DNA of 64,000 nt, from NCBI GenBank assembly GCA_030390025.1, contig CM059431.1, forward strand, positions 141,362,001-141,426,000. Reading direction: 5' to 3'. The notes beneath the pieces were generated by a model. It was given only the letters and a program-made list of their open reading frames with translations. It was not told where the DNA came from and ran no database searches. How positions within the stretch are numbered: the first letter of the stretch is position 1; each line of letters opens with the position of its first letter. This DNA is from Squalus acanthias (Eukaryota). Positions 18,786 through 55,696 of this stretch are shown piece after piece. The position numbers and the translations under genes were made by a program.

Positions 18786-20271
18786 GTGATTGAACACCTG
18801 TTTTAGGCCCCTACCTTTAGCTGAAAAACTATTACACAAAAACAGAAATAGGTCTGTGCGACTGAACGATAAGCTGTGAGTCTAGAAATTACTGCTTGCG
18901 ATATTAGCAGACTAAATCTAAGTTGTAATATCTACAATATAATCCCTCCGTAACATTTTAATGGTGGTTTGGAGCTTCATATCATGAATGGCTGGCGAAG
19001 TTACTTGAAATGAGTGAAGTAACCATTCCGATACTAATACTTTACAGCAAAACATCGGAGAGAAAGACCGGGCTAATCTTAACATTTTTTCAATGGGAGG
19101 GTGAAATCAGGCGGAGTTTAACATGAGCGGGAGACCAGAACCCGCCCGTTTACGGCCCGACCAGTTTGGTTAAATTACCCACCCTGGTGTTTTAACAAAT
19201 ACTTTCATAAAGAATGCCGGTGCCATGTTACTCCTTGGGAATAACTTTGTTGACTCGCTGGAAGATTCCTACCAAATTACCCAGCACCGTTCCATTTCCA
19301 CAACCTGCCTGAAGAGCCCAATCATTTCCTTGTAGATTCATGTGTCTCTGTGAGCTGAAGGTCACTGCATGTGATCTTAGAGGAAGAATGCAACCTGTAA
19401 CATTCCCCTTCTTTAGCGGAGGTGTTGACCAATTTAAAATGGAAATACATTTTCCAATCAGGTGTCTGCTGAGTGCAAGGCCTCTCCCCAGGCTTTCAGA
19501 CTAGAACCGAAAATCCGCTACATTTCCTCATAGTCCGGTACAAATAAGTAATATTGGATACAGGGATATGGGCACAACACGTGCACCAGCTAACATCTGC
19601 ATTTCCTATTCCACAGATCCGTCCGTTTAGGCAAACAGAGTAGGAATGCCCAGGTTCTAGACTGGCTTAGAATTCGTTGGGAGGGGGAACAGGAAAATGA
19701 TTACCGCTCTTGGAGACAATTTTAAATTAACCTGGAAATCGGGAAACTGATGGAATCGGATGAACGTGTGTGTTGCACACCACATTATTTCACTCTCATT
19801 GAATTCAACGGAGAGTAATATAGAGGGATGGGAAGGATGTAAAACTGTCAGTTTCCCGCCCGGCCTGTTAAGTTAAAATTACAACAGTGCGAGGGGTGTG
19901 TGTGGGGGAAAGCCCAGCTTGTATGAGTGAGCAATCGCCGGACACGCTGAGAAATGTCGAGTTGACACCCACCCGATTGCCCGACTGATCGACGCCACCA
20001 ACAAGTAATGAAGCTCATCAGAGGTGAAAGGTGAGGTGGGGGCGGGGGCAATTGGCGGGAGGTGTAGGAAGAAAATAAGATCGTCTTAATTCAAGATTAA
20101 TACAACGCCGCTGGTAGTTTATTTCAATCGTTTAAACAGCACGTGCATTACTTCATCAAAGATCAACAAAGTTGTTCACTGGAGAAAGTACAATGATTCA
20201 GATCTGGTAACTGTTGTATTCCAGGGTGATTTTTCCCAATATGAACCGTTTTGACTTGTCTTAAATTTCTC

Positions 20272-20277
20272 TTTATT
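20272..20277 (-). terminator. Candidate polyA signal of the minus-strand MS4A copy
   Basis: AATAAA in context AAACAGAATAAAGAGAAAT, identical to the context at 55658-55678 in the plus copy. Confidence 0.6.
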
Positions 20278-20399
20278 CTGTTTATTTATAAGTTGATTTT
20301 TCAGGTAATGCTTTTAGCTTCACACGTGTTGTTCGATGGAAGAATAACGTCATTCATGAACTGGATTTAGACGCCACTGCACCAAATGGTCTTCTTGCT

Positions 20400-21210
20400 G
20401 AATCATAGAATCACAGAATGATAGGGCACAGAAAGAGGCCATTCGGGCCATCGTGCCTGTGCTGATTCTCTGAAAGAGCGATCCAATTACTCCCACTCCC
20501 CTGTTCTTTCCCTATAGCCCGGCATATTTTTCCATTTTAAATTTCTTTCCACTTAACTTTTGAAAGTAACAATTGAATCTGCTTCCACCGCTATTTCAGG
20601 CAGTGTGTTCCAGATCACAACAACTCGCTGCGTTAATACATTTCTCCTCATCTCCCCTCTTGCACTTTTACCAATTACATTAAATCTGTATCCTCTGTTT
20701 ACCAACTCCTCTGTCAGTGGGAATAGCTTCTCCTAATTTATTCTATCAAAACGACTCATAATTTTGAACACCTCTAATGAATTATCCTTCCCTGGTCTAA
20801 GGAGAATAATCCCAGCTTCTATAGGCTCTCCACATAACTGAAACCCCTCATCCCTGCTAACATTCTAGTAAATCTCCTCTGCACCATCTCCAAGGTCTTG
20901 ATATCCTTCCTAAAGTGTGGTGTTCAGAATTGGAAACAATGCCCCAGTGGAGGCTTAATCAACGATTTACAAAGATGGAGCATAACTTCCGTGCTTTTGT
21001 ACGCAATGCCTCTATTTACAAAGCAAATGACCCCGTATGCTGTTAACAGCTATATCTGCTTGTCCTGCCACCATCAAGGTTGTGTCCCCCTGAACCCCCA
21101 GGTTCCTGCACCCAATTTAAAATTGTACTATTTCGTTTATAAAGATTCTCCTCATTCTTCCTTCAAAAATTCATCAATTCCCACTTCTCTATGTTAAATT
21201 TCAACTGTAA
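20400..21210 (-). mobile_element. CR1 LINE 3' fragment inside the MS4A 3'UTR
   Basis: Typical CR1 C-terminal sequence and 3' tail; absent from the paralogous 3'UTR. Confidence 0.8.
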
Positions 21211-21262
21211 TATATCCCATTGTACGATCTCCATTGAAAATCATTCTATAACGGTGGTGGTA

Positions 21263-21337
21263 TCAGACTGTTGTAGGTTGGACCTTGGGGATTGTTGTTT
21301 GAGACGTGTTGTCCTGATCAATAGGCTCATGGGAAGG
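21263..21337 (-). CDS. MS4A copy A exon 6 (terminal)
   Basis: TTTCTTTCTCAG|PSHEPIDQDNTSQTTIPKVQPTTV*; paralogous to 55412-55489. Confidence 0.8.
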   Translation of the reverse strand, partial: PSHEPIDQDNTSQTTIPKVQPTTV

Positions 21338-22194
21338 CTGAGAAAGAAAACAGAATTGTCGGAAAACAGTAAATAAATAAACAAACATATAAACATGCAA
21401 ACAAACAAACTGAGGTAAACGATGAAGATTTGTTCCACTAATGTTTGAAATTCCTCGATAAAATGACAATCGCGGTACACGTTATAATGGGCTGGAATTT
21501 GCTGTCAAAATAATTGTGAGGCTAAAAGCACTCACTGTTATTTCTTCTCAAATCGGACAGCTACTTTCAACCAGCACAGTTGCACATTCAACACAAAAAC
21601 CTGGAGTTACTGTCCGAAATCCACCGCTATTCTCTAAGCTGCTCGAAAATGGCATCTCGCTGGCTGGCTCCCCATTCAAATGTACTACGCTGCGTGAATT
21701 TTCTATACTTGCCCGGTAGAGAGGGAATAATCTCGCCACAGAAAGCGAGGGATTGTCCATATCAGTCGAAGTAGCATTTTTAAAAGCGTGATCATTTTTA
21801 ATTACTGACAAACAACCTCTCCAGCACTAATAATTAACTTTTACGAATGTGGAGTCTCATTCATTCAGAATTTACATGTTCACGGAGATTATTTTAAACA
21901 TTAAAAATTTAAATAAATAGCTTATCTTTCTTCTGTCTCTTTTTTCGCTCTCTGAATCCAACCTTTCTTTTGCTCTTTCTATTTAGCTTTCAATACCTGA
22001 TTTGACATTGAATACACTATGCTAACTTTCACTTCCACTTGCAGAATCTGCGCTGTTCCCTACTTCAATCCTTCAATATGATTGGTGAAGGGAATAAACA
22101 GTTGCTTGTTCTGTTCACACAGGTCCCAGATGCCCTGTAGAGGGCGCCGCAACATTTGTATCTCTTACTTACTGCAACTTCAAGTACAAAAGGA

Positions 22195-24445: not shown

Positions 24446-24571
24446 CTTATTGACATGTATTTTGGAATGGTTCCACAACTCCTTGCCCTCGAAAATGGAA
24501 ACGATCATTGATAACAACAGATCCAATACTGCCAGCGGGTAGACAACGAGTACGACACTGAAAGGGTATAT
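24446..24571 (-). CDS. MS4A copy A exon 5 (TM4)
   Basis: CCGCAG|IYPFSVVLVVYPLAVLDLLLSMIVSIFEGKELWNHSKIHVNK|GTTTGT; 126 nt, same length as the paralog. Confidence 0.82.
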
Positions 24572-26452: not shown

Positions 26453-26468
26453 ATAGTTCTATACTTAC

Positions 26469-26613
26469 AGCCAAAGTAAAACACCAGAATCATAGATACA
26501 ACCAGAAGGCAGAGAATGAGTGGGGTCCTAACCTGGATGTAAATGAACAACAGGACCAGACTGGCTGCACCAAGAAGGGCACTCATTGCACTCAGCGCCA
26601 GACAGGTCGCCAC
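26469..26613 (-). CDS. MS4A copy A exon 4 (TM3 + loop; 145 nt)
   Basis: TTCTTCGAAG|VATCLALSAMSALLGAASLVLLFIYIQ...|GTAAGT. Acceptor context is identical to the paralog. Confidence 0.8.
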
Positions 26614-27663: not shown

Positions 27664-27720
27664 AAGGCCTGTAGATGATGTCTTTTCCACAATACACCAC
27701 AGGCTCCCAGAAATAAGAAA
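27664..27720 (-). CDS. MS4A copy A exon 3
   Basis: TTTCCCAG|FLISGSLWCIVEKTSSTGL|GTAAGT; 57 nt. Confidence 0.88.
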
Positions 27721-29015: not shown

Positions 29016-29126
29016 CGACAGCCCGCTGCACAAGAGTACTCTGTGTCCTCCTGCCATCGATATCGAATTCAGAATTAAAGGCGACCAGATTATTAGTAAA
29101 AATATTCCCAACAGAATCTGCATAAC
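29016..29126 (-). CDS. MS4A copy A exon 2 (TM1-TM2)
   Basis: CTCTTTTAG|VMQILLGIFLLIIWSPLILNSISMAGGHRVLLCSGLS|GTGAGT; 111 nt. Confidence 0.88.
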
Positions 29127-30900: not shown

Positions 30901-31065
30901 CCCCAGAACTTTCGCTTTTCCCATCTGAATTCCTGGACTGTTTACTCTTCTGTTTGGTGAATGAGTCTGGAAGCCTCCCCGTCTCACTAGGGCTTCCCTT
31001 GTACCAGATTGTGGCTTAATATAGGGACTGATGACGCTCCCTTCAGTGCCCAGTGAAGTTGCCAT
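30901..31065 (-). CDS. MS4A copy A first coding exon
   Basis: MATSLGTEGSVISPYIKPQSGTREALVRRGGFQTHSPNRRVNSPGIQMGKAKVLG|GTAAGA; 165 nt. Confidence 0.88.
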
Positions 31066-32910
31066 GTTCCAAATTAGGACTGGTCACTCGACCCTTAGTG
31101 AATAAGAAGATGGTTCCACAGACATTAGAATGCCAACATTTCACTTAATAGTAACTAAACAGTACTCTTTATAGGATTATAATCTAACAATGGAAATTTA
31201 TAACATGTCAGCCATCCTGGCAGCGAATCTTTAACTATTTTGTACGAATTCAATTCATTTCGGTTGAACCCATCAATTTGCCACGTTCATGTCATGTTCA
31301 TAAGGTTCTTTCCTTTGAATCTTGAGAAGTGCTTCGTTTTTACGAATCACATGTTGGAGATTTTAATAATTCAGTTATAAAAATCTAACAAGCTAAACCT
31401 CTGAAGGAAATTTTCCACCCAATGTTGAAATTTAATCGGGGCAATGGATTTGGGCCAAATCGATGGCCGTATTTTTCCTGCGGTGGTGAAGTGCTTTGTT
31501 CTGTCTGATATTCGTTCTGAAATCGCAAGCATGTATTTTCAATTGTGATTTTTGCTATAATTACCAACCGAAATAACATTTCCATGCACACCTAGGCAAT
31601 CGTTTCAATACAGCCTAGCGAACATCTTCCCATTTAAGTTTCATCCCGTTCTCTATATTTATAACAATAAAGCACTCAACAAATATGTTATTAATGAGGA
31701 GGTTACACTTATCATTGAACTAAAAAAAGAAAAGTAATTGCATCAATGTAAAAATTAGTGCCTTATTTCGGCTGAAAAACGATTAGTTTTAATTCTGCAT
31801 TTTGTTAAATGCAAATTGATTAATCAGTTGTTAAAAATCATCTAACGGGACATGTTCCTTGTGTTTGTCGAACAGACACATATTTCGAGGCAAATATCTT
31901 CACTCTCTTCTAATTTCAGAATGCAACATTACCTCAAGCAGGCATTGAAATTTACTTCAGTCGTTACAAAGGACATTGTTGCAATAACCAGATAGAGGAA
32001 AATAATGCATAGAAGTTACAACACAAAAAACAGGCCAGTCAGCCTAACAAGGCGGTATCTGTGTTTAACCTTGAAACGAGCAAATTACAGAAAAAAATTG
32101 AGCGAAAATAGCAGGTTTGAAACCTGATTATTACGTTCAGTGTATCTACATCTGATCCATACATTCAGGATCCAGCGCAGACTCGATGGGCTGAATGGCC
32201 TTCTTCTGTGCTGTACTATTCTATGATTCTATAAGCGGTTGTGAAGTTTACAGCCACAGATCGGAATTTCTATCCATAATTATTAGCGCAGGAAATTCTT
32301 ATCAGTTCACATGGGATTTTTCCGTCTGATCCCCTGGACTGCTATTGATCGACGGAGGGGGCCGCAGAGGGGTTTTCCAGCTTATGTTTTCCTTATTGGC
32401 CCTGAGTTTTTTACTCTGGTTATTCTGCCTCTCCCAGGAGATTACATGGCTGCCGGGGTGGGAGGTGGGGACGTGCGATGATGCTCCGGCCAACGTGGTG
32501 TGGGGAAGGCTTGACGCAGCAGCTGGTCTCTTCCTGCCCACACATTCCGTATGTTGGTGTGATATTGTCTGTAATGGTTGGATTGCATTTGAGGACAGGA
32601 CCTCAACTGACAAATTCGGACTAAAGATATTCATCATTCCGAGCAGATACTGTAATATGTATGCAGATAAACATGTTACAATTCTGCACATTTTGGTTGC
32701 GTAAAACGGGCGATTTTCTGCCCTCGCCAGATTTTCCCTTCAATGGATCTCAATGGAAAGGAACATCTGGCGGGCGTGAAACGGGGGCTAATTCCACATC
32801 GCCCATTTCACACCATCGTCCAGGGTTTAAATTGTCCCCATTGATCGCAACAATAGCCATGACTCTGGTAAAATGAATCACATGGACAATATGAAGTCGG
32901 CTTAACTTAC

Positions 32911-33010
32911 CCGTGAGGATCGGTCACCGATCGGAACTCTGCGCCCACCTTCAGAGCTCGCGAGCCTTTCTGACGGGACACTTGAGTAACACTGCGGGGT
33001 GTGTCTGATA
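32911..33010 (-). other. Putative 5'UTR exon of MS4A copy A
   Basis: Ends CACGG|GTAAGTTA and is homologous to 44420-44516. The 5' limit is approximate. Confidence 0.55.
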
Positions 33011-33419
33011 CAACCGGTTAGCTGGGGGTGGAGTTTGGCCCTGTTCTCTCACTAGCTTCTCAAAAGAGCAGTCCAACCATTTTATCTTTTCTGCAGCTGT
33101 ATTCGTCAGTTCAGTTCCGTGAAGAACAGCTGATATTTGTAGGATAGAATGCGGAAATGCCGATCTGTAATGTGAGTCTAGATATTACACTTGGTCCTAT
33201 AAGTGGAGAGACGTTTCCTGTGTCCGTACTGATGATAATTTTATCGGAAGGTTCAACGTTTGAAGTGAAGGAATAGGCGCTAAAGTTGGAAAGTAGATTT
33301 TCAAGAATCACTGATTAGTCAATTATCCCAAAATAATCTCCAAGCGATAATTTCTTATCTTGTTCATTGTCTCCTGAAACCTAGTAGCAAATTACCATAT
33401 TAATCCGTTCAATTGTTTT

Positions 33420-33815
33420 TATTCATTCTAGGCATGTGGGTGTCGCTGGAAAGGTCGGAATTTAATGCCCATCCCTAGTTGTCCTGGATACAGCTGACAG
33501 GCTCGCTAGTCCACTTCAGAGGGGCCGTTAGGACTCAGCCACCTTGGTTTGGGACTGGAGTCACACAGAGGCCCAGACATGGTAAGAAATGCAGGTTTCC
33601 TTCTCTAAAGGACATCAGTGAACCAGTTGCGTTTTAAGACAACCCGACAGCTTCATGATTGGTTTTACTGGTTCCAGCCTTTTATTTCCAGAACTTTTCA
33701 GAAACCGAATTCAAATACTCAAGCTGGCATGGTGGGATTTTAACTCACGTTCTCTGGATTATTACTCGAGGATACCAAGTCAGTATTCCAGTAGAATAAG
33801 CATGGCATTACCATA
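33420..33815 (-). mobile_element. tRNA-derived SINE sharing its 3' tail with the second LINE family
   Basis: Same structure as 47001-47459. Confidence 0.8.
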
Positions 33816-34249
33816 CCTGATAAAATTGGTTGAATTGTGATATTATTCTTCAAACACCAGAACTCGTGGCCCGTGTTGACTGATCTTATGATATTGCGAG
33901 ATTCTGAGTTATGAATTATGTGTATATAAATCCGAAACACATTCTCTGTACACGGGTTAACGATTCGGCGAGACTTAGGGAGCAGGGGAACTTTTGGAGA
34001 TTGCATATAACTGGTTATGTGTCCTTCCTACTATTGATCTAGAACAGAACGGTGATGACTGCAGTCTGTTCCAACTCGAACCGCGGGCTAACGGTGCAAT
34101 TATCATTGTCGGTGTCAATGCAGAATGGAAATTTGCACAGATTTACACAAACATTTGACAGAAATGTAGTTGGGGACGATTAATGTATTTACCTTTCGGG
34201 CCTGGATGGAAGAAGGAAATCAGGGCGTTGAATTCCCTTCTCTCCCTCT

Positions 34250-35062: not shown

Positions 35063-35130
35063 TTTCTGCCCGGGCTGTTGTTGGAAGTTGGTTTCTCGCA
35101 GCCTGAGTTCAGATGGTCGATTATCTCAAT

Positions 35131-36295: not shown

Positions 36296-36299
36296 AATG

Positions 36300-39620: not shown

Positions 39621-39649
39621 CTATTCAAATTTAAACGTCCATTGAAATA

Positions 39650-40066: not shown

Positions 40067-40478
40067 TTAATTACCGAGAACGCGAAATAAACGACCTCTC
40101 CCTTTTCAGCAGCTAAAACGTGCGGCCAATGCGCCTCTCGATGGGCCCAGTACGCTGTAGGTAGATAATGGCGGAGTTCAAGGGGTCAGCTGTCTGACAC
40201 TGACGCAATACTGGCGTATTCGTTTCGTTATTTAGTTCTCATAACAGAATGTGACAGATATCTGCCGGCAAGGGCTCGATCGGCCGAATGCCCTCCATTT
40301 GTGCTGCACCATTCTCTGAATCCATTTAATTGGGGAGTAATGCTGACTGTGCCCGAGTGTTGGACGGTATACAGGGATGTTTTTACCAAATAATTGGCTG
40401 ATTATGAGAACGAGAAAATGTATATTTTCTTGCTCCCTGTTCTCACCTTCACTCGCTACATCCAACCACTCAATAATC

Positions 40479-40705
40479 CAGAAAATGCTGGAAATACTCA
40501 GCAGGTCAGGCAGCATCTGTAGAGAAAGAAACAGAGTTAATGTTTCAGTCCGATGACCTTTCGTCAGAACTGTTCTGACGAAGGATTATCGTCCTGAAAC
40601 GTTAACTCTGTTTCGCTGTCCACTGATGCTGCCTGACCTGCTGAGTATTTCCAGCATTTTCTGTTTTTATTTCAGATATCCAGCATCCGCAGTATTTTAC
40701 TTTTC
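40479..40705. repeat. Long palindrome (Penelope-like element terminal sequence)
   Basis: Arms of about 92 bp (CAGAAAATGCTGGAAATACTCAGCAGGTCAGGCAGCATC... and its reverse complement) around centre 40571. Confidence 0.85.
40572..40606 (+). ncRNA. Minimal type-I hammerhead ribozyme motif
   Basis: GUU-CUGACGA-AGGA(UUAUCG)UCCU-GAAA-C-GUU-AAC: full catalytic core, 4-bp stem II, palindromic AACGUU stem III and 3-bp stem I. Confidence 0.6.
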
Positions 40706-41364
40706 TGATGTTGTAATCAATAACCCATCTGGGTTTAGGTGGTGATCGATAATGTGATTCTAAGACGGCGGGACACGCACGTCCGCATGACATTATCTGG
40801 GTCAGGACTTTGCTTTGCAGCAATTTCTGCACATTGTCAATAGCAACTCAACCGCAGCCAGTGGTTTCAGCAGCTGAACATCTGCTGGAGGTTTGCAATT
40901 TGAGTTTAAGTTGTGTCGAGTTTATTTCCGCAAAAAAAACAGCGAAGCAGAGGGATGGTTACTACTTTTTGTTCATTTCTGTGGAGTTGAATTAGTTTTG
41001 GTCCTGTCGAGACACTGCAAGGATTTCTGTTTATTGCCGATTTTGATCTTTGTCTCATGTTGAGCACATCTCCGAATGTGGGTCGCTGGGGTTTGATCTG
41101 AACTTTGCGCCAATCTGTAACCCGAGTACAAAAGTCAGTTGTTGGACAAACTCTTGAAATCAAGAATCCGAGATATAATTAGTGAGGATTAAGAAATGCA
41201 CGGGTTAATTTAAGGGCTGGCTGCATGGATTTAAGAAAGTCAAGTCATGTTTGATAACTTGTACAGAATCCTTTATAAAGTAATCTATTATACAGATGGA
41301 GGCTATTAAGTAAATACATAACATTTTTATCAGGTTTTTAATAATGTTTTCCACAAACGACTTG

Positions 41365-42150
41365 TTAGGAACATACGAAACATGGCGGACAGGAAGCGAC
41401 CTACTGGTCCATCCAGCCTGTCCCGTGCAGTTGTGATGCCTCGTGCTTCCCAATAAATAAACTCGCCTCCCCACCCAAAACCATGTGATCTACTGGAAGG
41501 GGCGACAAGACAGATCAAAACCCAGGATCATGAGTGGTCAAAAATCTGCAAACTTCCTCTCCGAACTCTTTAGGTGATTAAAATCAGTCCATGAGATCAC
41601 ACTGCCCCGGATTAACGTTGCCAGTTACCTTCCCGTTGTACGAGGTGACCTCCGTACCAGTTCACAGCAGATCCAGATCTGATGGAATTCAGCGACTCGG
41701 CTTCCACCGCACAGGCCAACAGCCGGTTCCACAGAAGCACTATCATTTAAGAAAAGAACTACTTCCTGAAATATTAGCTAGATCTGTCAGGATACACCTT
41801 GCGATTCTGATCCCTGATCCTCTGCAACCTATTTAGTTGAAGCATTTTGTCTAGAAAAAGGAAATTTAAGCCCATCATCATCTTATAAACCTTAAACAAT
41901 TCACCACTAAGTCTACGCTTCTCCAAAGTGTACAGACTAATCTCTTAGAGTCTATCTTATTAACTAGGATGCTTCAAACAGGGTATTAGTCTAGTGGCCT
42001 TCCTCTGCACCTATTCTATCCTTAATTTCGCCCATCCTGCGAGGAGACAAAATTGGACACCGTTTCTATCTGAGACCTGACCAAGGCCTTATACAAGAAC
42101 ACAATAGTTGGCTGCTTTTTATATTTAATTGTCTTGTAACTACGCCCTAG
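41365..42150 (-). mobile_element. LINE 3' fragment (CR1/L2-like, different family)
   Basis: GAACATACGAAACATGG tail and an LYKALVRSQIE motif on the minus strand. Confidence 0.65.
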
Positions 42151-43529
42151 AACAATCAGATCTTTTGGATAAGAGCAGATGTAGCTGCGTGGATATGACG
42201 GCGGCTGATGGACGGTCAGCTTCAACTGATGGTAGTTGGAATGTGGAAGGTTGGAGCTGGGTTCGAAGTGTGCCACAGGAATCCAGTTTCCTGCTTTGTC
42301 TATTTGGAAATAGCAAGAACAATCTCGAAATTTTCTTAAAACACGTAATCAAGCGGTTTGTTAAACAGCGACCAGGACTGTCAGCACCTTCAGGAAAATA
42401 GGTTGTACAAATGGGGAAAGAGATGGCAGCTGGTGTTTAATATGGGTAATTGAGATATAACAGATTCCGTCAGGAATGATCGCATATATTTAATGGAACG
42501 ATACTGAATGATGTCATTGAAAAGAGAAACCAAATGTTCTAAGACATAATTCCTTCGAAGTACCCATGTAGGTAGATAAAATCATGAAAAAAGAAGAAAT
42601 GCATTTTGGATGTAGGGATATAGGGATAGGATGAGGCCATTTAATCCCTGGAACCGTATCCACAATCTCATTAAATATTGGCTGATCTGTATCTGAACTC
42701 CATCCACCCGTCTTGGATCTGTAACACTTAATACCGTTGTTAACAAAAATCTATTAATCTCAGTTTTACATTTTGAATTGACCCCCAGTCTCATCAGCTT
42801 TGTGGGGGAGAGTGTTCCAGAATTCCACTACCCTTTGAGTGAAAAATTACTTCCTAACATCAATCCTAACGTGCCCAGCTCTAATTTTAAGGCTGTGCCC
42901 AACCAGACTATTTTGTTTTATTTCTATCTACCGTATCAAATACTTTAAGTACCTTAAAAACTCAATTGGATCACCCTTCTTCACCTTCTATATTCAAAGG
43001 TTTAGATTCCGAGAGTTGCGACTTCAGCACATATGGACGCTGACTCCAAGTTTTCGGATGATGTCACGAAGGGGCAGTTATGAATGAGGAAGAGGAGAGA
43101 GCGAAGCTTAAATCTTTGGGGAATCTCCAAAAGTAACAGTGCTGGGACAGGGAGAGAAGCCATTGCTGGAGACACTGCGGCTATATTTGTATACATAAGA
43201 ATGGAATCAAGCGGGTGCAGTCCCATTATGCTGGAATCGCAAACTCCACCAAAATGTGCAGCTGTTGAACTACTGGCTGTGGTTCGGTTGCTATTGACAA
43301 TACGCAGAGCTAACTACAAAGCACAGTCCTGACCCAGATAATGTTATGCGGACGTGCGTGCCGCGCCGTCTTATACGCACATTGTAAATTACCACCTAAA
43401 CCGAGATGGGTTATTGAATCGTCAGATGCATGGAGTGAATGTGAGAACAGGAAACAAGAACATGAACATTTACTCTCTCTTGCACATATTTGATAGTCAA
43501 CTTTATATCCACAACTAAATATATCACAT

Positions 43530-44050
43530 TTTATTATGAACACTAAACAAAACTGATATGGTGTCAGTAGCAGAGTGCTGACTCCTTTATCTCTACCTAG
43601 AGTGTACTCAGCCAGGGAGCGGTCGATTATCTGCATATTTTAGCCATTGTGAAGGGAGAAGTCGTTTACTCTGTAGAATTGAAACACAGTGGGTCAACGC
43701 TGCATATTCGGGTCATTCATATAAAAATCCGCTTCCCATTTTTAGCGCGGGTACCAAATGCTTTCCTTGTCATGTTTAACATTACGATAAAATTACCATC
43801 GGATGACTATCATAAGGGCACGCGCAGGGAATGAAAATGGCCCTGGGCGGGAATGGAAAACAGGTGGTATTGCATGTGTCGCCTGATATATGTTGCACCC
43901 GATATTCAGTCCCATTGACTTCTCCCTTTACAATGGCTAAACTATGCAGATCATCGACTTCTCTCTGCGCTGAGTACCCTCGAGGTAGAGATAACGGGGT
44001 CAGCACTCTGCTACTGACAGCATATTAGTTTTATTTAGTTTGCATAACAA
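43530..44050. repeat. Inverted repeat with ~135-bp arms (43530-43663 / 43916-44050)
   Basis: TGTCAGTAGCAGAGTGCTGAC..TTATCTCTACCT..TTTAGCCATTGTGAAGGGAGAAGTC recurs as its reverse complement. Confidence 0.85.
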
Positions 44051-44419
44051 ACTGAAAATCAGGTGTGTCGTATAGCAGTCCGGAAATGGGATTCCGCCTG
44101 ATTTGTTCACCTCACGTGTTCTATTTCAGCCCGAAGCGTCTCTCCTCTGATAGGACGAAGTGTAATTTCCAGACTCACATTACAAGTCAGTATTCCGGCG
44201 ATATTGCTTTCAAATACCTGTTGTTGGCCTCTGAATCGAACTGTTTAGAACAGTTCCAGAGACGATAAAGGGATTGGACTCATGCTGTGAGACACTAGTG
44301 ACCCAACGAATGGACAGAAGTTACAACATAAAAGCAGGCCAGTCGGCCCAATGAGTCCGAGTCACAGTACTAGTGAACATGAACCAAACCGTCCCCGAAC
44401 GCGAGCCAATCGCTAATTT

Positions 44420-44516
44420 CCGTTAGATCCAGCAGTATTGCCTAAGTGCCCGGTCATAAAGTATCTCGGGCTCTAAAACAGGACCCAGAGTCCCGAGCGG
44501 TGATCGATAATCTCGG
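44420..44516 (+). other. Putative 5'UTR exon of MS4A copy B
   Basis: Ends CTCGG|GTAAGTTA, homologous to 32911-33010. CCAAT at 44406. A matching acceptor (TTCTTATTCACAAAG) lies at 45989 before the ATG exon. Confidence 0.55.
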
Positions 44517-46017
44517 GTAAGTTATCGAAGAGGCATGGCTCTTGTTAGGAACAATGCGGGTAATTTTATCTCTGAGCGATGGTGTTTAATGGGCGATATG
44601 GAATTAGCGCCCGTTAGATGTCCTGTGTGATTTCCCTTCCATTGAATTCCATGGAAGGGAAAATCTGGCAGGTTGATGTCAAAGCCTATTCGATATCGTC
44701 CGTTTTGAGCTGTCGCTCAACGTTAAAATATATGTAGAAATGTGATAAGTTTATCTGCATAAATAGTGCAGCATCTTCTCGGATTGTTGCATATCTTCAG
44801 TCTGAATGTTTCAGTGAAGCTCATGTCTTAAATGTACAATATTGCGTGTGTACTGATACGAATTTTCTGTGCTAACATTTAATATAGAAATTACAAGCTG
44901 TGGTTGATTAGTTCTCAACCGGCTCGATAGTGAATATCAGTACAAGCTTTTAAACAAGGTCCTATTTCTCAAATTGTATTTTCGGTAATTTGCTCGCTTT
45001 GACGTTAAACGCCAGCAGTGACTTGTTCGGCCGACTGGCCTGTTTTATTGTGTTATAACTTCTAGGCCTTTCAATTTCTATATCTGTTTGTTGGATGATT
45101 GTTGTTTGGAACGTCAGCAGTGAATACAAATGGATGTTTGAGGTGACGTTGCATTTTGTAATTAGAAGAGAATGAAGCTATTTGCACCGAAATCTGTGGC
45201 TCTTCGGCAAACAGAAGGAGCTTATCCCATCAGTTTATTGGTAACAACTGATTATACAATTTGTACTGATCACAACGTAGAATTAAACAATTGTCTTAAC
45301 TTGTATACATTCAACCGAATTAAGACATTAATGTTTACATTGATGCAATTCTGTTAATTTTTATTTCAATGGACAGTGTAGCCTCATACATTAATATTAT
45401 TAATTTTTTTTAAGTGTATTATTATAATGATAGACAACAGGATGTAACTTAAGTGGGAAGATTTTCGCTTGGCTGTATTGGATGATTAACTAAAATATGC
45501 CCCGGAAACATTATTTTGGTTGATAATTGTAGTGAAATCTCATTTCAAAACACTATGCTTGCGATTTCAGGATGAATACCAGACAGAAAAAAACATGAAT
45601 GCAGCAACAATATGCTGATCGATTGGGGCCTAAATCATTCCCTTGACTAAATTTCAAGTCTGGGGAAGAGTGTTTTTTCCCAGAAATTCGTTTTTTCGGG
45701 TTTTGTGAACTGAAATACTAAAATCCACAGCACCTGATTCGTGAAAAGAAGCACTTGTCAAGATTGAAAGAAAATAACTTCATGAACATGACGTAAAAAT
45801 ATCACATTGATAACTTCAATCGAAATTTATTGAGTTCGAAATATATATTTATAGATTGGGTGCCAGCCTGGTTAAAGTGTCACAAATTGCCATTGTCAGA
45901 CTGTAATATCATAAAGAATATTGGTTAGTCAGTATTAAGCGAAAATTTGCTGTATTAATATGTGTGACATTTCCTTCTTATTCACAAAGTGTTTATTGCC
46001 CAGTCTTTACTTGGAAC

Positions 46018-46182
46018 ATGGAGACTTCACTGAGCACTGAAGGGAGCGTCATGAGTCCCCATATTAACCCGCAATCCGATAGAAGGGAAGTCCCAGTGAG
46101 ACGACGAGGCTCCCGGACTTATTCACTGACCAGAAGAGTAACCGGTCCCGGAAATCAGATGGGAAAACCAAAAGCATTGGGT
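46018..46182 (+). CDS. MS4A copy B first coding exon
   Basis: METSLSTEGSVMSPHINPQSDRREVPVRRRGSRTYSLTRRVTGPGNQMGKPKALG|GTAAGA. Confidence 0.88.
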
Positions 46183-47626: not shown

Positions 47627-47737
47627 GTCACTCAGATTGTGTTGGGAATAGGTTTTATAATATTCTGGACGCCATTAATTCTGAGTCCGATATCGATACC
47701 AGGAGAACACAGAACACACTGGCGGAGCGGCCTGTCG
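47627..47737 (+). CDS. MS4A copy B exon 2
   Basis: CTCTTTTAG|VTQIVLGIGFIIFWTPLILSPISIPGEHRTHWRSGLS|GTGAGT; 111 nt. Confidence 0.9.
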
Positions 47738-48965: not shown

Positions 48966-50780
48966 AATGTCATTCGACCGAACCCCGACAGCTTCGAGGG
49001 TGGGAGAGTTCCAGATTGTCACTATCCTTTGTGTGAAGATGTGCTTCCTTACATCACCCCTGAAACTGTACATCTCTAATTTGAAGGCTGTAGCCCCGAA
49101 TTCTGGACTCCCCCACCATAGGAAATTAGTGTCTCTCTAGCCCATCAAATCCTTTAATCGTTCTATACACCTCAATCAGATCACCTCTTCATCTTTTACA
49201 TTCAAGCGATTACAAGACTAGTCTATGCAAACTGTCCTAATAAGTTCCACACTTTACGCCCCGGTAGAATTCTGGTGAATTTGCGCTGCAGCCCATCCAA
49301 GACCAATATATCCTTCCTGAGGTGCGGTGCCCGGAACTGTGTGCAATAATCCAGTTTGGGTCTGCCCAGACATTTAAACTGTAGAATAACCTGCATCCCT
49401 TTGTATTCCGGCTCCCTTGAGAGAAACGCTAACATTACATATAAAGTATCAAGAAGTTTTTTTTTTCATAGAGATCCATATTAGATAGAATTACAGAAGA
49501 GGGACAGGCAATTTGGCCCTACTGGTCTGTGTCGGTGTCTATGCTCTGCACGAGCCTCCTCCCACCCTTATTAATGTAACCCTATTAGCCTATTCCTATT
49601 CCATTCTCCTTCATGAATTGATCTAGCCTTCCCTTAAATCCCTCAATGCTAATCGCCTGAACTATTCATTATGTTGTAAGTTCGACATTCTAACCACTCT
49701 CCTGAATCCCTTATGGATTTATTGGTGACTATCTTTTATTTATGACTACTAGTATTTGACTCCTCAAATCTTCTCGACGTCTACCCTATCAAAACCCTTG
49801 TTAATTTTAAAGCCATCAAAAGGTCACCACTCGGCCGTCACTTCTGTAGAGAAAAGAGACCCAGTCAGTTCAGTCTTTCCTGATAGTTATAAACTGTCAG
49901 TTCTGGTATTATGCTTGAACATCTTTATTGCACCTTCTCCAGAGCTGCTATAACCTTTTGTTATATGGAGACCAGAACACTCCAAAGTATTCTACGAGTT
50001 TCTACATAAGTTCAACATAAACTCTCTTCTTTTCAATTCTATTTCTCTAGAAATGAAACCCAGTGCTATTTGAATAGAAATTAAATCCACTCTGTCTGCA
50101 TTTTAATAGCCTTCTTAACCCGCATCTCTACTTTTAATGATTTATGAATCAGTACCCCTAGATCTCTTTGTTCCTATATCCCATTCAGACACTTTTTTTC
50201 CTTTCAGTTTATGGCCTCCTTATACCTCCTATCAAGATGTACCAGCTCACACTTATCTATATTTAAATTCATTTGCCAGCTGCACGTCCATTCTGCAAGC
50301 TTATTAATGTCTTCTTGTATTTTGTCGCAGCTTTCCTCCATATTAAGTATATTCTCTAATTTGATTTAATCCAGAAATTTTGAAATTGTACTTCCGATTC
50401 CTGAGATCAAATCATTTATGTAAATGATTATGTAAATGCTGCACCTGATTTTCGTGATTTTACTATGCGGAGCCCTAAATCTTGCTGCGCCTCCACAGTG
50501 CAAACCTTCTCACCATTTAGAAAATACACTGATCCATTTTCTCAGGTCCACATTGAACTCAATCTGCCACAGTTTAGCCCGCTCACTTAATTTATCAATG
50601 TCCCTGTAAAACTTTCAGCCCCCATCTCCTAACTTTAATGTGCCACCTAACTTGTTGTCGACAGTAAACTTGTTAACATGGTTCTCTATTGCTTCATCTA
50701 AGGCTTTGATAGATATAGTGAGAAGCTGAGGCCTCAGTCCAGATCCCTGGGCGACACCACTACTCACAGCCTGTGAAGGT
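48966..50780 (-). mobile_element. Cluster of CR1 fragments
   Basis: ORF 49223..49435 (RPKLDYCTQFRAPHLRKDIL), with further RT C-terminal sequence to about 50780. Confidence 0.75.
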
Positions 50781-50872
50781 TCAAACAGAAATAAATATTT
50801 ATAGTTTTAGAGTGTTGTTATAATTATAGACAGGCGTTATCATCAGAAGTTGATATGTCACATTTTTTTCAG

Positions 50873-50929
50873 CTAATAATTTGTGGGTGCATATGGTGTG
50901 TTCTGGAAAAGACAACATCTACAGTCCTT
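50873..50929 (+). CDS. MS4A copy B exon 3
   Basis: TTTTTTTCAG|LIICGCIWCVLEKTTSTVL|GTAAGT; 57 nt. Confidence 0.88.
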
Positions 50930-51339
50930 GTAAGTATCTCCATAATGGTTTTCCACTTAAACAAGCTCTCCATTGCAAGGAGTACTGTTTCATCCTGAAA
51001 TTCTGGTTACTGGGCAGATTATGTGCATATTAGCAAAGTAACCGTCAACTGGGATTGTTCAGACAACTAATAGCTCATATAATGAGGATGGATCTTGACT
51101 TTGTGCGAGAGTGTGAAAGTAGTCATAGCCAGGCAGCAGCCCGTCTTACATCTGCCCTTATTTATATTTCCATTGACTGCAATGGAATGGAAAATGGGGC
51201 GGGGTTGTAAAATTGGCGATTAAATCGACATCACTTGTTTTACACGATTGTCCAAATGTAAAATTAGACTCAATGGGGCTCTATGTTGACTTTGTGCGAA
51301 TCTGCAGCACATTTTACCTCTCCTCCGGTTTACATTTCT

Positions 51340-53000
51340 AGAGCAATACAACTCAAAAGCAGAAAGTTTATATTAAACTGATACAAAACCTTGGTTAGAC
51401 CACACTTAGAGTATTGTTCACTGTTCTGATCTCCATATTACAAAAGGGTTATAGAGGCACTGCAGAAAGTAACACATAAAACAATTTACAAGGATGAAGG
51501 CAGAAAATAATGGTTTCAACTATCAGAAAAGACCGAGAAGGCTGGAGATCTTTTCTCTTGAAAAGAGAAGAATGTGAGATGAATTGAAATTATGAAGGAG
51601 TTCGCTATGGTAGACCTAAAGAAAATGATTCCACTTGTGTGTGGGGAGGAAGGGGGGGGGGGGGGGGGGGGTCCACCAAAACTAAGGTCTTCAATATAAG
51701 ACAGTCACTACTAAATCCAATAACGAATTAATGAGAAACTTCTTTACTCAGAGAGTGGAGAGAAATAATTGCATTTATGTGGCGACTACTAATACCTCTG
51801 GACGTCCTAAAGCGCTTCACAGCCAATGAAATACTTTTGAAGAGTAGTCACTGTTGTAATGTTACGTGCTACCGCATGGAGTGGTTGAGGTGAATATCAT
51901 AGAACCATTGAGGCATCAAATAATACAGCACAGAAGAGGGCCATTCGGCCCAGTGTGCCTGTGGTTGCTCTTTAGTAGAGCTATCCGATTAATCCCATTC
52001 CCCTGCTCTTACCCCATAGCCATTCAAGTATTTATCCAATTCTACAATGGATGCTTTAACAGGAAGCTGTACAAGTACATGAGGGAGAAAGGAAAAGAAG
52101 GATAGGCTGAGATGAATTATGTTGGGAGAGGCCTCTGTGGAGCAGAAACATCGACATGGGCCAGTTGGCCCGAATGGCCTGTTGGTGTGGTGTAAAATTC
52201 TATGTAATTCTAAGTAATATATATCTTCAGAGGACTTCAATGGAAATAAAAATGAGGATAAATGAAATCATATTTCCGGCGCGCTACCACAGTTTCACAC
52301 TATCGCACAATGTCAAGATCAATCCATCTGTGTTTTACTCATTAGCAGTAGCTGCATTTCTAAACACTTGTTCTAACTGCTTCCTAGATTGCATTAAAGG
52401 TTATCTAGAAAATATTCCTCTCTGTAATTATTATGTTATCCGTTCATTTTATTGATCAATATAGTTTTCCAGAACTCACACTACATATTTACTCCCTAGA
52501 AAACCCTTTCTCCTACAAATTAGAATTATAGAACCATAGGCACAGGAGGAGGCCATTCTGCCTGTCGCGCCTGTGCTGGCTCTTTGTAAGAGCTATCCAT
52601 TTAGTCCAATTCCCCCTGTTCTTTCCCCATTTAGCCGTGTATTTTTGTTCCTCTTTAAGTATATATAGAATTCCCTTTTAAAAGTTACTATTGACTCTGT
52701 TTCCATAATCCTTTCAGGCAGTGCATTCCATATTGTAACCAATTGTCATAAATATGTGCTCTCTGGTTACCACCCTTATGCCAGTGGAAACAGTCCCTCT
52801 CTATCTACTCAAAACAACTCATAATTTCGAACACCTCTATTGTATCTACCCATAACCCATCTATTCTGAGGAGAACAATCCCAGCTTCTCTAGTGTCTAC
52901 ATATAAAATAATTCCCTAATCCCTAGCACCATTCTTGTAAATCTCCTCTGCTCCAACTCCAAGGTCTTGAGACCCCTCCTAAAGTGTGGTTCCTAGAAAT
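51340..53000. mobile_element. CR1 fragments (plus 51340-52210 with nested pieces; minus 52520-53000)
   Basis: LYKTLVRPHLEYC motif, NFFTQRV and CR1 tails; poly-G run at 51652-51671. Confidence 0.75.
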
Positions 53001-53254
53001 TAGATTGAACAATTCTCAGTTCCATTGTTTATGCTTTATGCTAACAATATCTCCTACTCTGCTGGGTCAAATGCCATTCCTAAAAATGAAATCTATTTCT
53101 TAATTTTGGAAAATTCGTATTGGATGGAATTTCAAACTACTTCCTATCTTTAGACAGATGCTTTGAATGAGAATTTTTGCAAACATTATTGCAAGTGTTG
53201 TGAAAATACCACCAACTACAGATATCTGAATAAATAATTGCTTATTCTTCGAAG

Positions 53255-53393
53255 TTGGCGGCGTATCTGGTGCTGAATATGATCAGTGCCCTTATTGCCA
53301 TAGCGGGTCTGGTCCAGCTTTCCACTGACTCACAGATTTGGTCCACAAGCGTTGTCTGGAAGTGTCTGTGATTCTCGGTTCATTACTTTGGAT
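53255..53393 (+). pseudogene. MS4A copy B exon 4 (TM3 + loop), disrupted
   Basis: TTCTTCGAAG|LAAYLVLNMISALIAIAGLVQLSTDSQIWSTSVVWKCL*. The frame needed to join exon 5 reads ..ALSGSVCDSRFITLD|GTAAGT. Confidence 0.82.
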
Positions 53394-54447
53394 GTAAGTA
53401 CAGAATTGCAATCTTAATACGTAATTAATATCTTTAAATCAACCAAGGCTGCATTTGCATGTGTTCTGAATTGTTTTATAGAGAATGTACAGCACAGAAA
53501 GAGGTAAATGTGTCCCAGCAGATCTATGTAGTGTTTATGCTCCGCAAGGGCCTCCTCTCACCTTACTTCATCTAACCCTATCAACATAGCCAGATTGTCT
53601 TTCACCCTCATGTGTTTATCTCACTTCCACTTAAATACATCGATAATATGCACCACAACCTCTCCATGTGGTAGTGAGTTCCACATTGTCACAACTCTCT
53701 GGTTAAAAGGTTCCTGCTGAATTATTTGTTGAATTTATTCGTGACTAATTATATTGATGGTCCCTAGTTTTGGACCCCTCTACACGTGGAAACATCTCTA
53801 CGTCTAACCTGCCTTAATTTTAAAGACGTCTATTAGGTCACCTTTCAGCCTTCTCTATTCTAGAGAAAAGAACCCACCTTATCAATCTGTAACACATTCT
53901 CCGACAAAATTGGCAAAAGCATCTTGCTTGAATTGCCTGAAAGGGCGGTGGAAGCAGATTTAATGGGGAAAGAGCAAAGGGGAGTGGAAGAAATTGCACA
54001 GCTCCTTCAAAGAGCCGACACAGGCACGATAGGCCGAACGGCCACCTTCTGTGCTGTATGGTTCTATAATTCACATCCTAGTCCAATATTTCCATCCCCC
54101 GCCCTCGAACATCACTTCATCTGAAGAATTATTCTTGACTCCCTGTGGCTGGTCGCCTAGTATTGAAACAAGGGGTTTGAAATTGATTTGCAGCAAAGCG
54201 ACTGATGTTCTGCTCCATTGAACTCAATTGGAAAGGAAATCGTGATGAGAGTAAAATGGGCGTCCGATGGCGAAGACCAATTTCACTCCCAACGTTCTAC
54301 ATTGGACCAAAATTTTCAATGTCTAATCCTAAATTTCAATTTGAGTTTCTACTTCAATTGTGCTGTCGCTGGGAGTTGCACCATTCTCCTTGCAAGAAGC
54401 AGTCTTAGTTCCAATTGTGTTAACATATTATTGCAACTGACCCACAG

Positions 54448-54573
54448 AGATATCGTTTCGGCCTCAGCCTCGTTCTCTTGCTCCTGGTGCTGTTGGAGCT
54501 GTCGGTATCAATCGTCGGTTCCATTTGCGGATGCAAAGTGTTGTGGAACAATTCTAAAACACAATTCAATAAG
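54448..54573 (+). CDS. MS4A copy B exon 5 (TM4)
   Basis: CCCACAG|RYRFGLSLVLLLLVLLELSVSIVGSICGCKVLWNNSKTQFNK|GTTGGT; classic MS4A TM4 pattern LLE.xxSI...GCK. Confidence 0.9.
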
Positions 54574-54734
54574 GTTGGTAGTTACAAGGCCACATTGCCA
54601 ATTCATATTTCCGGTTGAGCTGCTTAGAAAGAAAGACCTTGGGTCAGAAATTCTTCACGGGCGGGGGCGCAAAACGGGCGGCCGATCCGATCCTCCCGTT
54701 TTGCGCCACCGTCCGAGACGAATTTCTCGGCTCT

Positions 54735-55190
54735 TGCATTTATAAAGTGCAGATCATGACCCCGGGACGTCCCAAAGTGCTTGACATTCAATGAAACACT
54801 TTTAAACTGTAGTTAAGGTTGTAATGTTGGAAACTCGGTAGTCAATTAGTGCACAGGAAGGTCCCATAAACAACAATTTTATAAATGAGCCGGATACCTG
54901 ATTATTTTATGGTAGTGTTTCAGAGATAAATATTTGTCCTGGAAACGCGGAAGAACTTCCCTGCCTTACTTCTAAATAGTTCCATGGAATCTATTGCATC
55001 CACCTGAGAGAGCAGATTCGGCCTCGGTTTAACGTCTCATCCGAATGATCACACCTCTGACAGTGCAGTGCTTCCTGACTACCGCACCAGGACTGTCATC
55101 TTACATTTTGCTGCTGAAGTTTCTGGAGTGGGATTCTGAACTCACAACATTCTGACTCAGAGGCGAGCGAGCTATCACCTGAGCCAAGGG
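54735..55190 (-). mobile_element. Deu-domain SINE
   Basis: GGCCTCGGTTTAACGTCTCATCCGAA core and TTCTGACTCAGAGGCGAG head, in reverse. Confidence 0.82.
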
Positions 55191-55411
55191 GGGCACACAA
55201 TAGCTATTTGATCAATTCAGAATTTGGTGTTCACTTCCCAAAGTCTTGCAATGAGAAATCTCGTAATGTACCCTGCAATACTTCACTCCTGAGGAATTTG
55301 ACATCTGGCACGGAGGAAATCACCATCATTTATGTCAGTTTGTTTGTTCGTACAATTAATTATTTGTTTATCTATTTACTATTTAGATTTCAATTCCGAT
55401 TTCCTTTTCAG

Positions 55412-55489
55412 CCTCCAAATAAGCCTTCTGATCAGGACAGCACCTCTCAAACACCGATACACCAAGGTCTGATGTCTACAGCAGTCTGA
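55412..55489 (+). CDS. MS4A copy B terminal exon
   Basis: TTCCTTTTCAG|PPNKPSDQDSTSQTPIHQGLMSTAV*; AATAAA at 55665-55670. Confidence 0.82.
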   Translation, partial: PPNKPSDQDSTSQTPIHQGLMSTAV

Positions 55490-55696
55490 TGCCTTCAGCA
55501 CCGGTGTAGAATGGATTTCCATTATAGAGTGGGAGATTGAGCAGGAAGACTAATTGTTGCCGTGGAGTATAAATCCAGTTCATGACTGACCTCGCTTACT
55601 TTAATACAGCAAGGCATGTGAAACCAAGGGCTTTACCTGAAAAAAGCAACTAATAGATAAACAGAATAAAGAGAAATGTGAGAACTGAGCAATAAA

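What the first reader, a model, noticed from the sequence alone, without database searches (positions are those of the whole stretch)
20270..55690. Hidden head-to-head pair of MS4A/CD20-like genes from an ancient inverted duplication
Seen: two six-exon genes on opposite strands with matched exon sizes (165/111/57/145 vs 139/126/75 vs 78 nt) and matched splice contexts. Homology extends through introns, a 5'UTR exon, upstream sequence (33060-33215 vs 44135-44300) and the 3'UTR/polyA context. The ORF track shows only fragments. Established: the GxPKALG-VxQI, SGSL, LNxxSA and LLExxxSI..GCK motifs mark MS4A tetraspanins. Inference: a lineage-specific MS4A subfamily, easily missed by annotation.
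Basis: partly seen in the sequence, partly recalled or inferred. Interest (0 to 1): 0.72.

Follow-up and report, generated by a model that had tools for sequence, protein, structure and literature searches.

The report
Back-to-back shark MS4A pair, loop-less copy
These are two back-to-back shark genes of the CD20/MS4A membrane-protein family, one of about twenty copies of the same pair in this genome; both carry a frameshift in the exon for the outer loop, and the left gene likely survives by splicing that loop out while the right gene is likely dead.

Summary
Observation confirmed: two six-coding-exon genes face away from each other, with an 11-block anti-diagonal at 67-77% identity. They are diverged MS4A genes. 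Joined in a script they score 56 and 88 bits against a profile of Pfam-CD20 proteins (shuffles at most 6.5), and relatives are annotated in four other sharks.

Corrections: (1) It is not one pair; the gene-spacer-gene cassette occurs about 20 times. (2) The 145- and 139-nt exons are frameshifted; the ancestral exon is 147 nt. Gene B has a stop inside it and a second frameshift, so it is likely a pseudogene. Gene A's clade (19 copies) shares the frameshift yet shows 0 indels in its other coding parts (16.6 expected) and has an in-frame splice donor 81 nt into the exon. Using it would drop the second extracellular loop and both cysteines. No RNA was available to test the splice.

The scan found this family before on another cassette 3.9 Mb away (e1-9982541). 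The donor and the per-exon frame test are my own results.

The parts
32586..33217 (-). Gene A upstream conserved block, with candidate non-coding exon 1 ending at 32911 (donor GT at 32910)
   Evidence: exon use inferred, no RNA
30901..31065 (-). Gene A coding exon 2 (ATG; 55-aa cytoplasmic N-tail)
29016..29126 (-). Gene A exon 3 (TM1 + first outer loop)
27664..27720 (-). Gene A exon 4 (57 nt, FxISGSL motif, TM2)
26533..26613 (-). Gene A exon 5, proximal 81 nt (TM3), ending at an in-frame donor CAG|GTTAGG (GT at 26532)
   Evidence: use of this donor is inferred
26469..26532 (-). Gene A exon 5, distal 64 nt: former second-loop coding part with two 1-nt deletions against the 147-nt ancestral exon; old donor GTAAGT follows
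24446..24571 (-). Gene A exon 6 (TM4)
21263..21337 (-). Gene A last coding exon; 1 nt shorter than in-frame B copies, which shifts a TYxSL tyrosine motif out of frame
20272..20286 (-). Gene A candidate polyadenylation hexamers
33218..44132 (.). Spacer between the two 5' ends; homologous in blocks across the other cassettes (76-98%), so part of the duplicated unit
44133..44834 (+). Gene B upstream conserved block, with candidate non-coding exon 1 ending at 44516 (donor GT at 44517)
   Evidence: exon use inferred
46018..46182 (+). Gene B coding exon 2 (ATG; ends GKPKALG)
47627..47737 (+). Gene B exon 3 (TM1 + first outer loop); 72% DNA match to the canonical MS4A exon on contig C5
50873..50929 (+). 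Gene B exon 4 (57 nt)
53255..53393 (+). Gene B exon 5, 139 nt: 8 nt shorter than the ancestral 147, frameshifted, TGA at 53369-53371, no good in-frame internal donor
54448..54573 (+). Gene B exon 6 (TM4, LLE..VSI..GCK)
55412..55489 (+). Gene B last coding exon with a 2-nt insertion against other B copies (second frameshift)
55665..55670 (+). Gene B candidate polyadenylation hexamer
49372..64000 (+). First copy of a 15.2-kb tandem duplication (99.9%) that runs past the window edge and repeats B exons 4-7 without exons 2-3

Best explanation
The window holds one copy of a back-to-back pair of MS4A (CD20-family) four-pass membrane-protein genes that is repeated about twenty times in this shark genome; both genes have a frameshift in exon 5, gene B is likely a pseudogene, and gene A likely stays active by splicing at a new donor 81 nt into exon 5, which would give a 204-aa protein lacking the second extracellular loop and its cysteine pair. 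Shown: exons, homology, cassette repetition, frameshifts, the in-frame donor, frame conservation in gene A's clade. Inferred: which splice is used, expression, and function. History (inferred): an MS4A gene related to the canonical one on contig C5 was duplicated in inverted orientation before the split from cat, bamboo and epaulette sharks; the whole gene-spacer-gene unit was later amplified, in part together with NLR genes; B partners mostly decayed while A copies kept their frame. How it would work (inferred from the family): MS4A proteins oligomerise in the membrane with partner receptors and modulate calcium entry. A form with no second loop and no tyrosine motif in its tail would act through its transmembrane helices and first loop, as a partner subunit and not as a stand-alone signalling receptor. 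I put an immune-cell role at about 0.5, a chemosensory role at 0.25, other at 0.25.
For: Ancestral exon 5 is 147 nt with C-x5-C in the C5 outgroup gene and in 5 paralogues; the matching segment is 49 aa in P0005 and P0009. In the 19-copy clade under the frameshift, exons 2, 3, 4, 6 and the first 81 nt of exon 5 show 0 indels vs 16.6 expected from flanks (P 6e-8; 0 vs 9.6 for the 7 chromosome-placed copies) and 5 stops vs 18.3 expected (1 vs 9.8 on internal branches). The distal part of exon 5 shows no deficit (3 stops vs 1.5, 1 indel vs 2.1). Exon 6, downstream of the frameshift, has 0 indels vs 3.9 and 0 stops vs 4.1. The proximal donor pairs with U1 at -7.6 kcal/mol in gene A vs -7.3 for the old donor; -5.5 to -8.2 in the 16 frameshifted copies that keep exon 5 vs -3.1 to -4.2 in the five 147-nt copies. 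It has 1 change at its six key positions on the tree; the old donor has 5 at +1..+6, including two GT losses, vs 1-2 for each of four ordinary donors. With this donor 9 of 19 clade copies are open with canonical sites; with the old donor 0 of 19. Gene B: stop 148 nt before the last junction, second frameshift, best in-frame internal donor only -3.8, and only 1 of 18 B-type models in frame.
Against: No transcript evidence either way was obtained. U1 pairing energy is a crude donor score, and the old donor is intact in gene A. Three of the 19 clade copies were left out of the exon-5 alignment because a deletion removed the acceptor and 5' part; counting that as one lesion gives 1 vs about 3.8 expected for the proximal part, no longer significant. 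A control frame of exon 6 also shows a stop deficit (3 vs 8.0; the other control 2 vs 3.2), which weakens the stop part of the exon-6 test. Amino-acid changes are not depleted (296 vs 309 expected), so there is no ordinary purifying signal. 10 of 19 clade copies are not open even with the proximal donor. In gene A's own 6-copy subclade the test has little power (0 stops vs 1.2). A loop of about 0-4 residues is shorter than the range given for human MS4As (printed as '1046', which I read as 10-46 aa; PMC11663944 passage). I could not fold the spliced form.
Confidence: 0.5

Rival explanations
1. Gene A uses the old donor. The two frameshifts turn the distal 21 codons into a new hydrophobic fourth helix followed by a new 41-residue tail read from exon 6 in another frame, giving a 200-aa four-pass protein.
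For: The shifted segment is open and strongly hydrophobic in 6 of 6 copies of the 145-nt subclade (mean hydropathy 2.4-2.7). The stop ends 1 nt before the last junction, so nonsense-mediated decay is not predicted. The old donor is intact in gene A. In that subclade the shifted frame of exon 6 shows 9 synonymous vs 6.3 expected and 17 non-synonymous vs 19.8.
Against: The shifted frame of exon 6 is open in 24 of 26 A-type copies, including unshifted ones, so openness is not a sign of selection. It cannot explain the 146-nt copies, 7 of 10 of which stop after 7 codons. Counts are small. The old donor has weakened at +6 in 2 of the 6 copies.
Confidence: 0.15
2. Exon 5 is skipped altogether (exon 4 joins exon 6 in frame), giving a three-helix protein; this would also rescue gene B.
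For: Skipping opens 15 models, including both window genes. Exon 5 is lost whole in one copy, loses its acceptor in four and its donor in several. RefSeq models of other elasmobranch MS4As lack this segment (P0006, P0008, P0012, P0013). A human exon-skipped MS4A7 isoform is reported as a surface protein (PMC10031966, passages; a different exon).
Against: In the 16 clade copies that keep exon 5, its acceptor has 0 changes and the first 81 nt have 0 stops and 0 indels vs 1.2 + 2.6 expected. Three helices would invert the last helix and put the tail outside (inference).
Confidence: 0.15
3. Both window genes are dead or dying passengers copied along with neighbouring NLR genes; the frame conservation reflects older selection or chance.
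For: Non-synonymous changes run at the flank rate. Near-identical copies (96-99%) of the window's NACHT exon lie within about 10-40 kb of 5 other A copies. Most B copies and over half of the A copies are broken.
Against: The indel and stop deficits were counted on branches after the frameshift. The path from the clade root to gene A has 0 stops vs 3.2 expected (P 0.04). Gene A has no other lesion, and ordinary splice sites are conserved across the clade.
Confidence: 0.17
4. The exon-5 frameshifts are assembly errors and both genes are intact.
For: Single-base indels are a known long-read error type (own knowledge).
Against: The same 1-nt deletions are shared by 16 and 6 copies that form clades; B's 8-nt deletion is also present in its tandem copy; other B copies carry different 11- and 39-nt deletions.
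Confidence: 0.03

Closest known systems
Shark RefSeq models XP_067864859 (Heterodontus francisci, 'MS4A4A-like'), XP_043539111 (Chiloscyllium plagiosum), XP_060709394 (Hemiscyllium ocellatum), XP_038654752 (Scyliorhinus canicula); the last three 'uncharacterized'
   Same: One clade with the window genes (100/100); 33-50% identity over most of the length for the three tested (E 1e-32 to 1e-61); same segment lengths.
   Different: They keep the full second loop with two cysteines. The window genes have frameshifted this part, and gene A has also shifted its tail frame. Whether they lie head-to-head or are amplified in those species was not tested.
Canonical MS4A gene on contig C5 of this genome and its relatives annotated 'FcεRI beta-like' in catshark and rays (P0001, P0011, P0020)
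   Same: Sister clade (97/91); same coding exons 165/111/57/147/126; its exon 3 hits PF04103.
   Different: On another chromosome, keeps the PWWGG motif and the loop; about 28-29% identical to the subfamily's intact members.
Mammalian MS4A2 (FcεRI beta; 8yvu, 8y81, 8k7t) and MS4A1 (CD20; 6y90, 6vja), Pfam PF04103
   Same: The Heterodontus relative's best sequence hits in the PDB are CD20 and FcεRI beta (6 of 6, E 0.001-0.011) and the top 8 fold matches of its model are these two proteins (E 0.001-0.05, TM up to 0.70 by target).
   Different: No ITAM seen; gene A's predicted product lacks the second loop that carries the cysteine pair in most MS4As (PMC11663944 passage). The fold was tested on the relative, not on the window's products.
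Lineage-specific MS4A expansions in zebrafish (21 genes; PMC2826416 passages) and ascidians (clustered, selected sites in outer loops; bioRxiv 10.1101/2022.08.15.492342 passages)
   Same: Clustered recent duplicates, fast amino-acid change.
   Different: Here the unit is a two-gene inverted cassette, the fast-changing exons include transmembrane helices, and the second loop is lost rather than diversified.

Membership tests
MS4A / CD20-like (PF04103) | Pfam CD20 match above the 27.9-bit cut-off | tested here: inconclusive
   Single exons give no CD20 hit (0 of 10; 0 of 15 exon-6 copies; 0 of 5 cluster exon-3 copies vs 6 of 6 canonical ones). The joined proteins could not be scanned against Pfam itself. 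Intact relatives score 27.5, 23.7 and no hit.
MS4A / CD20-like (PF04103) | Full-length homology to proteins that pass the Pfam cut-off | tested here: met
   Profile of 18 such proteins: gene A short form 55.8 bits, gene B read with X at the break 88.1 bits; 0 of 200 shuffles each reach this (max 6.1 and 6.5). The 18 were retrieved with a profile that included window exons, so not fully independent.
MS4A / CD20-like (PF04103) | Four-helix CD20/FcεRI-beta fold | tested here: inconclusive
   Met for the relative P0005 (four long helices, pLDDT 69; top 8 Foldseek rows are CD20 or FcεRI beta but none at E below 0.001). For the window products only hydropathy was possible; gene A's short form has one 59-residue hydrophobic run for helices 3 and 4.
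MS4A / CD20-like (PF04103) | Motifs LGAXQI, GYPFWG, FIISGSLS, N-x2-S-x3-A-x2-G (listed in PMC11663944 passage) | tested here: inconclusive
   LGVxQI in both; FLISGSL in A only; the third-helix motif in B only; PFWG degenerate (W kept in B, lost in A).
MS4A / CD20-like (PF04103) | Two cysteines in the second extracellular loop (most members, PMC11663944) | tested here: not met
   Present in the outgroup gene and unshifted paralogues; out of frame or removed in both window genes. The review names MS4A8B and MS4A12 as members without them, so this does not exclude membership.
MS4A / CD20-like (PF04103) | Shared exon plan with a PF04103-positive gene | tested here: met
   C5 gene has 165/111/57/147/126, all phase 0.
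MS4A / CD20-like (PF04103) | Membrane oligomer, calcium entry or receptor-partner activity | not testable with these tools
   Needs expression and assays.
Classical tetraspanins (CD9/CD81 type) | Large second loop with CCG motif (recalled) | tested here: not met
   No CCG and no large loop in any copy; tetraspanin folds rank below MS4A folds for the relative.

The most novel reading that the evidence does not exclude
A shark-specific expansion of at least nine live MS4A genes was founded by a frameshifted gene that a new splice donor rescued, producing a loop-less four-pass receptor class whose first and third helices change faster than neutral; in gene A's subclade a second frameshift may add an alternative isoform with a newly made fourth helix. 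Co-duplication with NLR genes would make it an evolving immune recognition module.
Probability: 0.3. Interest if true: 0.65.

Novelty: new variant of a known kind. Interest (0 to 1): 0.42.

Why it matters
The 2010 family survey knew three MS4A genes in one shark and none in elephant shark (PMC2826416 passages). This genome has about 40 copies of one subfamily alone. If gene A is spliced as inferred, it is a natural MS4A without the second extracellular loop, a ready test of whether these proteins need that loop or act through their helices. It would also be a clear case of a frameshifted gene being rescued by a splice site and then amplified. If not, it is an ordinary decaying gene cluster.

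Tried and rejected
RNA: no RNA holder was listed for 53000-55700; this is no evidence on expression, and no reads could be laid. Word-seeded protein searches with B exon 6, the exon-6 alignment and the exon-2 alignment found nothing at E 10 or less (weak evidence by the tool's own note). Exon-6 profile vs PDB gave only PsbZ at E 3.5; exon-3 profile gave FcεRI beta at E 1. The only own-genome PF04103 hit at E 0.001 or less (contig C10) looks like sarcospan (recalled from sequence) and is not this cluster. The ESM Atlas gave CD20 clusters at 0.78 for B exon 6 (lead only) and no usable hit for A exon 3. A missing small exon between exons 5 and 6 was considered and dropped: the outgroup gene and the unshifted paralogues go straight from a 147-nt exon 5 to a 126-nt exon 6, and B's stop precedes its donor; I did not scan the introns for one. 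Positive selection was considered but is left open: omega is 1.4 overall and about 2 for exon 3 plus proximal exon 5 (LRT 6-12), but those exons were picked, and against the flank rate the signal is mostly a lack of synonymous changes (87 vs 127). Literature: searches listed no paper on a shark MS4A expansion or head-to-head pair; subscription papers are not covered. The supplements of PMC2826416 were term-searched only (alignment file cut when stored, no 'PLILS' match), so whether a dogfish gene there belongs to this subfamily stays open. bioRxiv supplements were not seen.
Full report
Observation. A self-comparison of the window shows 11 collinear inverted blocks between 20259-33217 and 44133-55683 at 67-77% identity, among many off-diagonal repeat matches. 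Gene A (minus strand) has coding exons 30901-31065, 29016-29126, 27664-27720, 26469-26613, 24446-24571 and 21263-21337. Gene B (plus strand) has 46018-46182, 47627-47737, 50873-50929, 53255-53393, 54448-54573 and 55412-55489. An invariant strong donor upstream (A 32910, B 44517; 10 of 10 aligned copies) and polyadenylation hexamers fit the claimed 5' exon and 3' end.

Family. No single exon hits Pfam CD20 (0 of 10). A loose PF04103 scan of the own genome found canonical MS4A exons on contigs C5 and C2617 (6 of 6 tested hit PF04103). The C5 gene at 5.77-5.78 Mb is also the best match outside the cluster for B's exon 6 and has the same exon plan, 165/111/57/147/126. A mixed exon-3 profile retrieved 27 proteins: 24 hit PF04103, 2 are unrelated, 1 has no hit. 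Three of them (P0005 Heterodontus, P0009 Chiloscyllium, P0017 Scyliorhinus) are the subfamily's own members, at 33-50% identity to the joined window genes. A profile of 18 proteins above the Pfam cut-off scores the joined genes at 55.8 and 88.1 bits, with 0 of 200 shuffles each above 6.5. For P0005, all 6 PDB sequence hits and the top 8 fold matches are CD20 or FcεRI beta. The organism is taken to be a shark because the nearest relatives in the tree are shark proteins.

Age and copy number. In a 26-protein tree the subfamily is one clade (100/100), sister to the C5-type genes (97/91). Gene B groups with three other sharks' proteins (98/96) apart from gene A, so the A/B duplication is older than those species splits; the Heterodontus protein is unresolved at the base. 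Exon 2 matches 40 places in this genome (40 of 43 candidates scored), which I class as 25 A-type and 15 B-type. They form 8 back-to-back pairs on C7 between 137.4 and 144.3 Mb and 12 on unplaced contigs; some of the latter are probably haplotype duplicates. The spacer is homologous among cassettes, so the unit copied is gene-spacer-gene. I built 45 gene models from the DNA I fetched; it does not cover the whole 7-Mb region.

The frameshifts. All exons but exon 5 are phase 0, so 145 and 139 nt cannot join exon 6 in frame. The ancestral exon is 147 nt and encodes helix 3 plus a loop with C-x5-C. Gene B lacks 8 nt, stops at 53369-53371, 148 nt before the last junction (a target of nonsense-mediated decay by the 50-nt rule, own knowledge), and has a 2-nt insertion in its last exon. 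Only 1 of 18 B-type models is in frame; genome-wide searches for exons 4-7 found 6 B-type copies, and other B copies have separate 11- and 39-nt deletions in the same exon. Gene A lacks 2 nt: one deletion is shared by the 16 copies of a 19-copy clade that keep exon 5, the second by 6 of them.

Is gene A alive? On a tree of 30 models with at least four exons, within the 19-copy clade, exons 2, 3, 4, 6 and the first 81 nt of exon 5 show 0 indels against 16.6 expected from flanking DNA (14.9 without homopolymer gaps; 0 vs 9.6 for the 7 C7 copies) and 5 stops against 18.3. The distal part of exon 5 shows no such deficit. Exon 6 lies after the frameshift and still has 0 indels vs 3.9 and 0 stops vs 4.1. 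At nt 81 of exon 5 there is an in-frame GT donor in 16 of 16 copies, as strong by U1 pairing as the old donor in gene A and stronger than the same site in unshifted copies; it is better conserved than the old donor. It opens 9 of 19 copies, the old donor none. On the P0005 model the removed part covers the outer ends of helices 3 and 4 and the loop between them (residues about 135-156).

Results against this reading. Three clade copies were dropped from the exon-5 alignment because they deleted the acceptor and 5' part; counting them removes the significance of the proximal-exon test. One control frame of exon 6 also has few stops (3 vs 8.0). Amino-acid changes run at the neutral rate (296 vs 309). 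Over half of the clade is broken anyway. Skipping exon 5 would open 15 models, including both window genes, and RefSeq models of other elasmobranch MS4As lack that segment. In gene A's 6-copy subclade the old donor gives a 200-aa product whose shifted segment is hydrophobic enough for a new fourth helix and whose stop escapes the decay rule. These three splice forms are not exclusive, and only RNA can rank them.

Function. By family knowledge, MS4A proteins oligomerise, partner other receptors and modulate calcium entry (PMC11663944, passages); some act as odorant receptors (PMC11026480, passages and abstract start). All A-type copies shifted a TYxSL tail motif out of frame, so gene A's product would have neither the second loop nor that motif. 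I read it as a membrane partner subunit acting through its helices and first loop. Exon 3 and proximal exon 5 have omega near 2, with the caveats under Tried and rejected. An NLR NACHT exon sits 10 kb from gene A's 3' end and near-identical copies lie near 5 other A copies, which tilts me to an immune role (0.5) over chemosensation (0.25). All of this is inference.

Prior knowledge. PMC2826416 (passages, supplements term-searched) reports three dogfish MS4A genes and 21 in zebrafish. The ascidian preprint (passages) and PMC10031966 (passages) give parallels for expansions and for an exon-skipped isoform. Searches listed nothing on this cassette. An earlier report of this scan on the 137.4-Mb cassette (e1-9982541) reached the same outline; I saw it after forming my reading and treat it as a lead, not as support.

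Verdict. Real feature, known family, subfamily already in public gene models. The amplified cassette and the likely splice rescue with loss of the outer loop are a new variant, untested at the RNA level. Interest 0.42.

Noticed in passing
window 8623-10494 (+): 623-codon open frame with FISNA (weak), NACHT, NOD2_WH and NLRC4_HD2 domains: an NLR gene exon, tail-to-tail with gene A. Seven other copies at 96-99% identity, five of them within about 10-40 kb of an A copy.
   Followed up: partly
window 49372-64000 and G000:C7 141426542-141441707: 15.2-kb tandem duplication at 99.9% identity repeating B exons 4-7; a very recent duplication or an assembly artefact.
   Followed up: partly
G000:C5 5.56-5.78 Mb and C2617 0.23-0.39 Mb: A second, canonical MS4A cluster; at least three near-identical copies on C5 and four distinct genes on C2617 by exon 3.
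   Followed up: partly
G000:C3498 703900 and 815600, C3500 216635: A three-copy subclade deleted the start of exon 5, and a 14-nt deletion in the last exon puts the TYxSL tail motif back in frame in two of them.
   Followed up: no
window 24446-24571 (-): Gene A and its nearest C7 paralogue have proline at the third residue of exon 6 where most copies have arginine, right where the short form would need a turn. Could be chance.
   Followed up: no
window 60552-61834 (+) and 4441-5067 (-): Reverse transcriptase and RNase H-like fragments of a retroelement, and a LINE-type endonuclease fragment.
   Followed up: no
window 2-528, 5614-7629, 10610-11413, 12107-13611, 58281-58859: Minisatellite arrays with periods 42, 34, 82, 30 and 25.
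   Followed up: no
P0009 and P0013; P0005 and P0004: In Chiloscyllium plagiosum and in Heterodontus the subfamily member and a canonical MS4A list the same longest-contig length, hinting that they share a chromosome there, unlike here.
   Followed up: no
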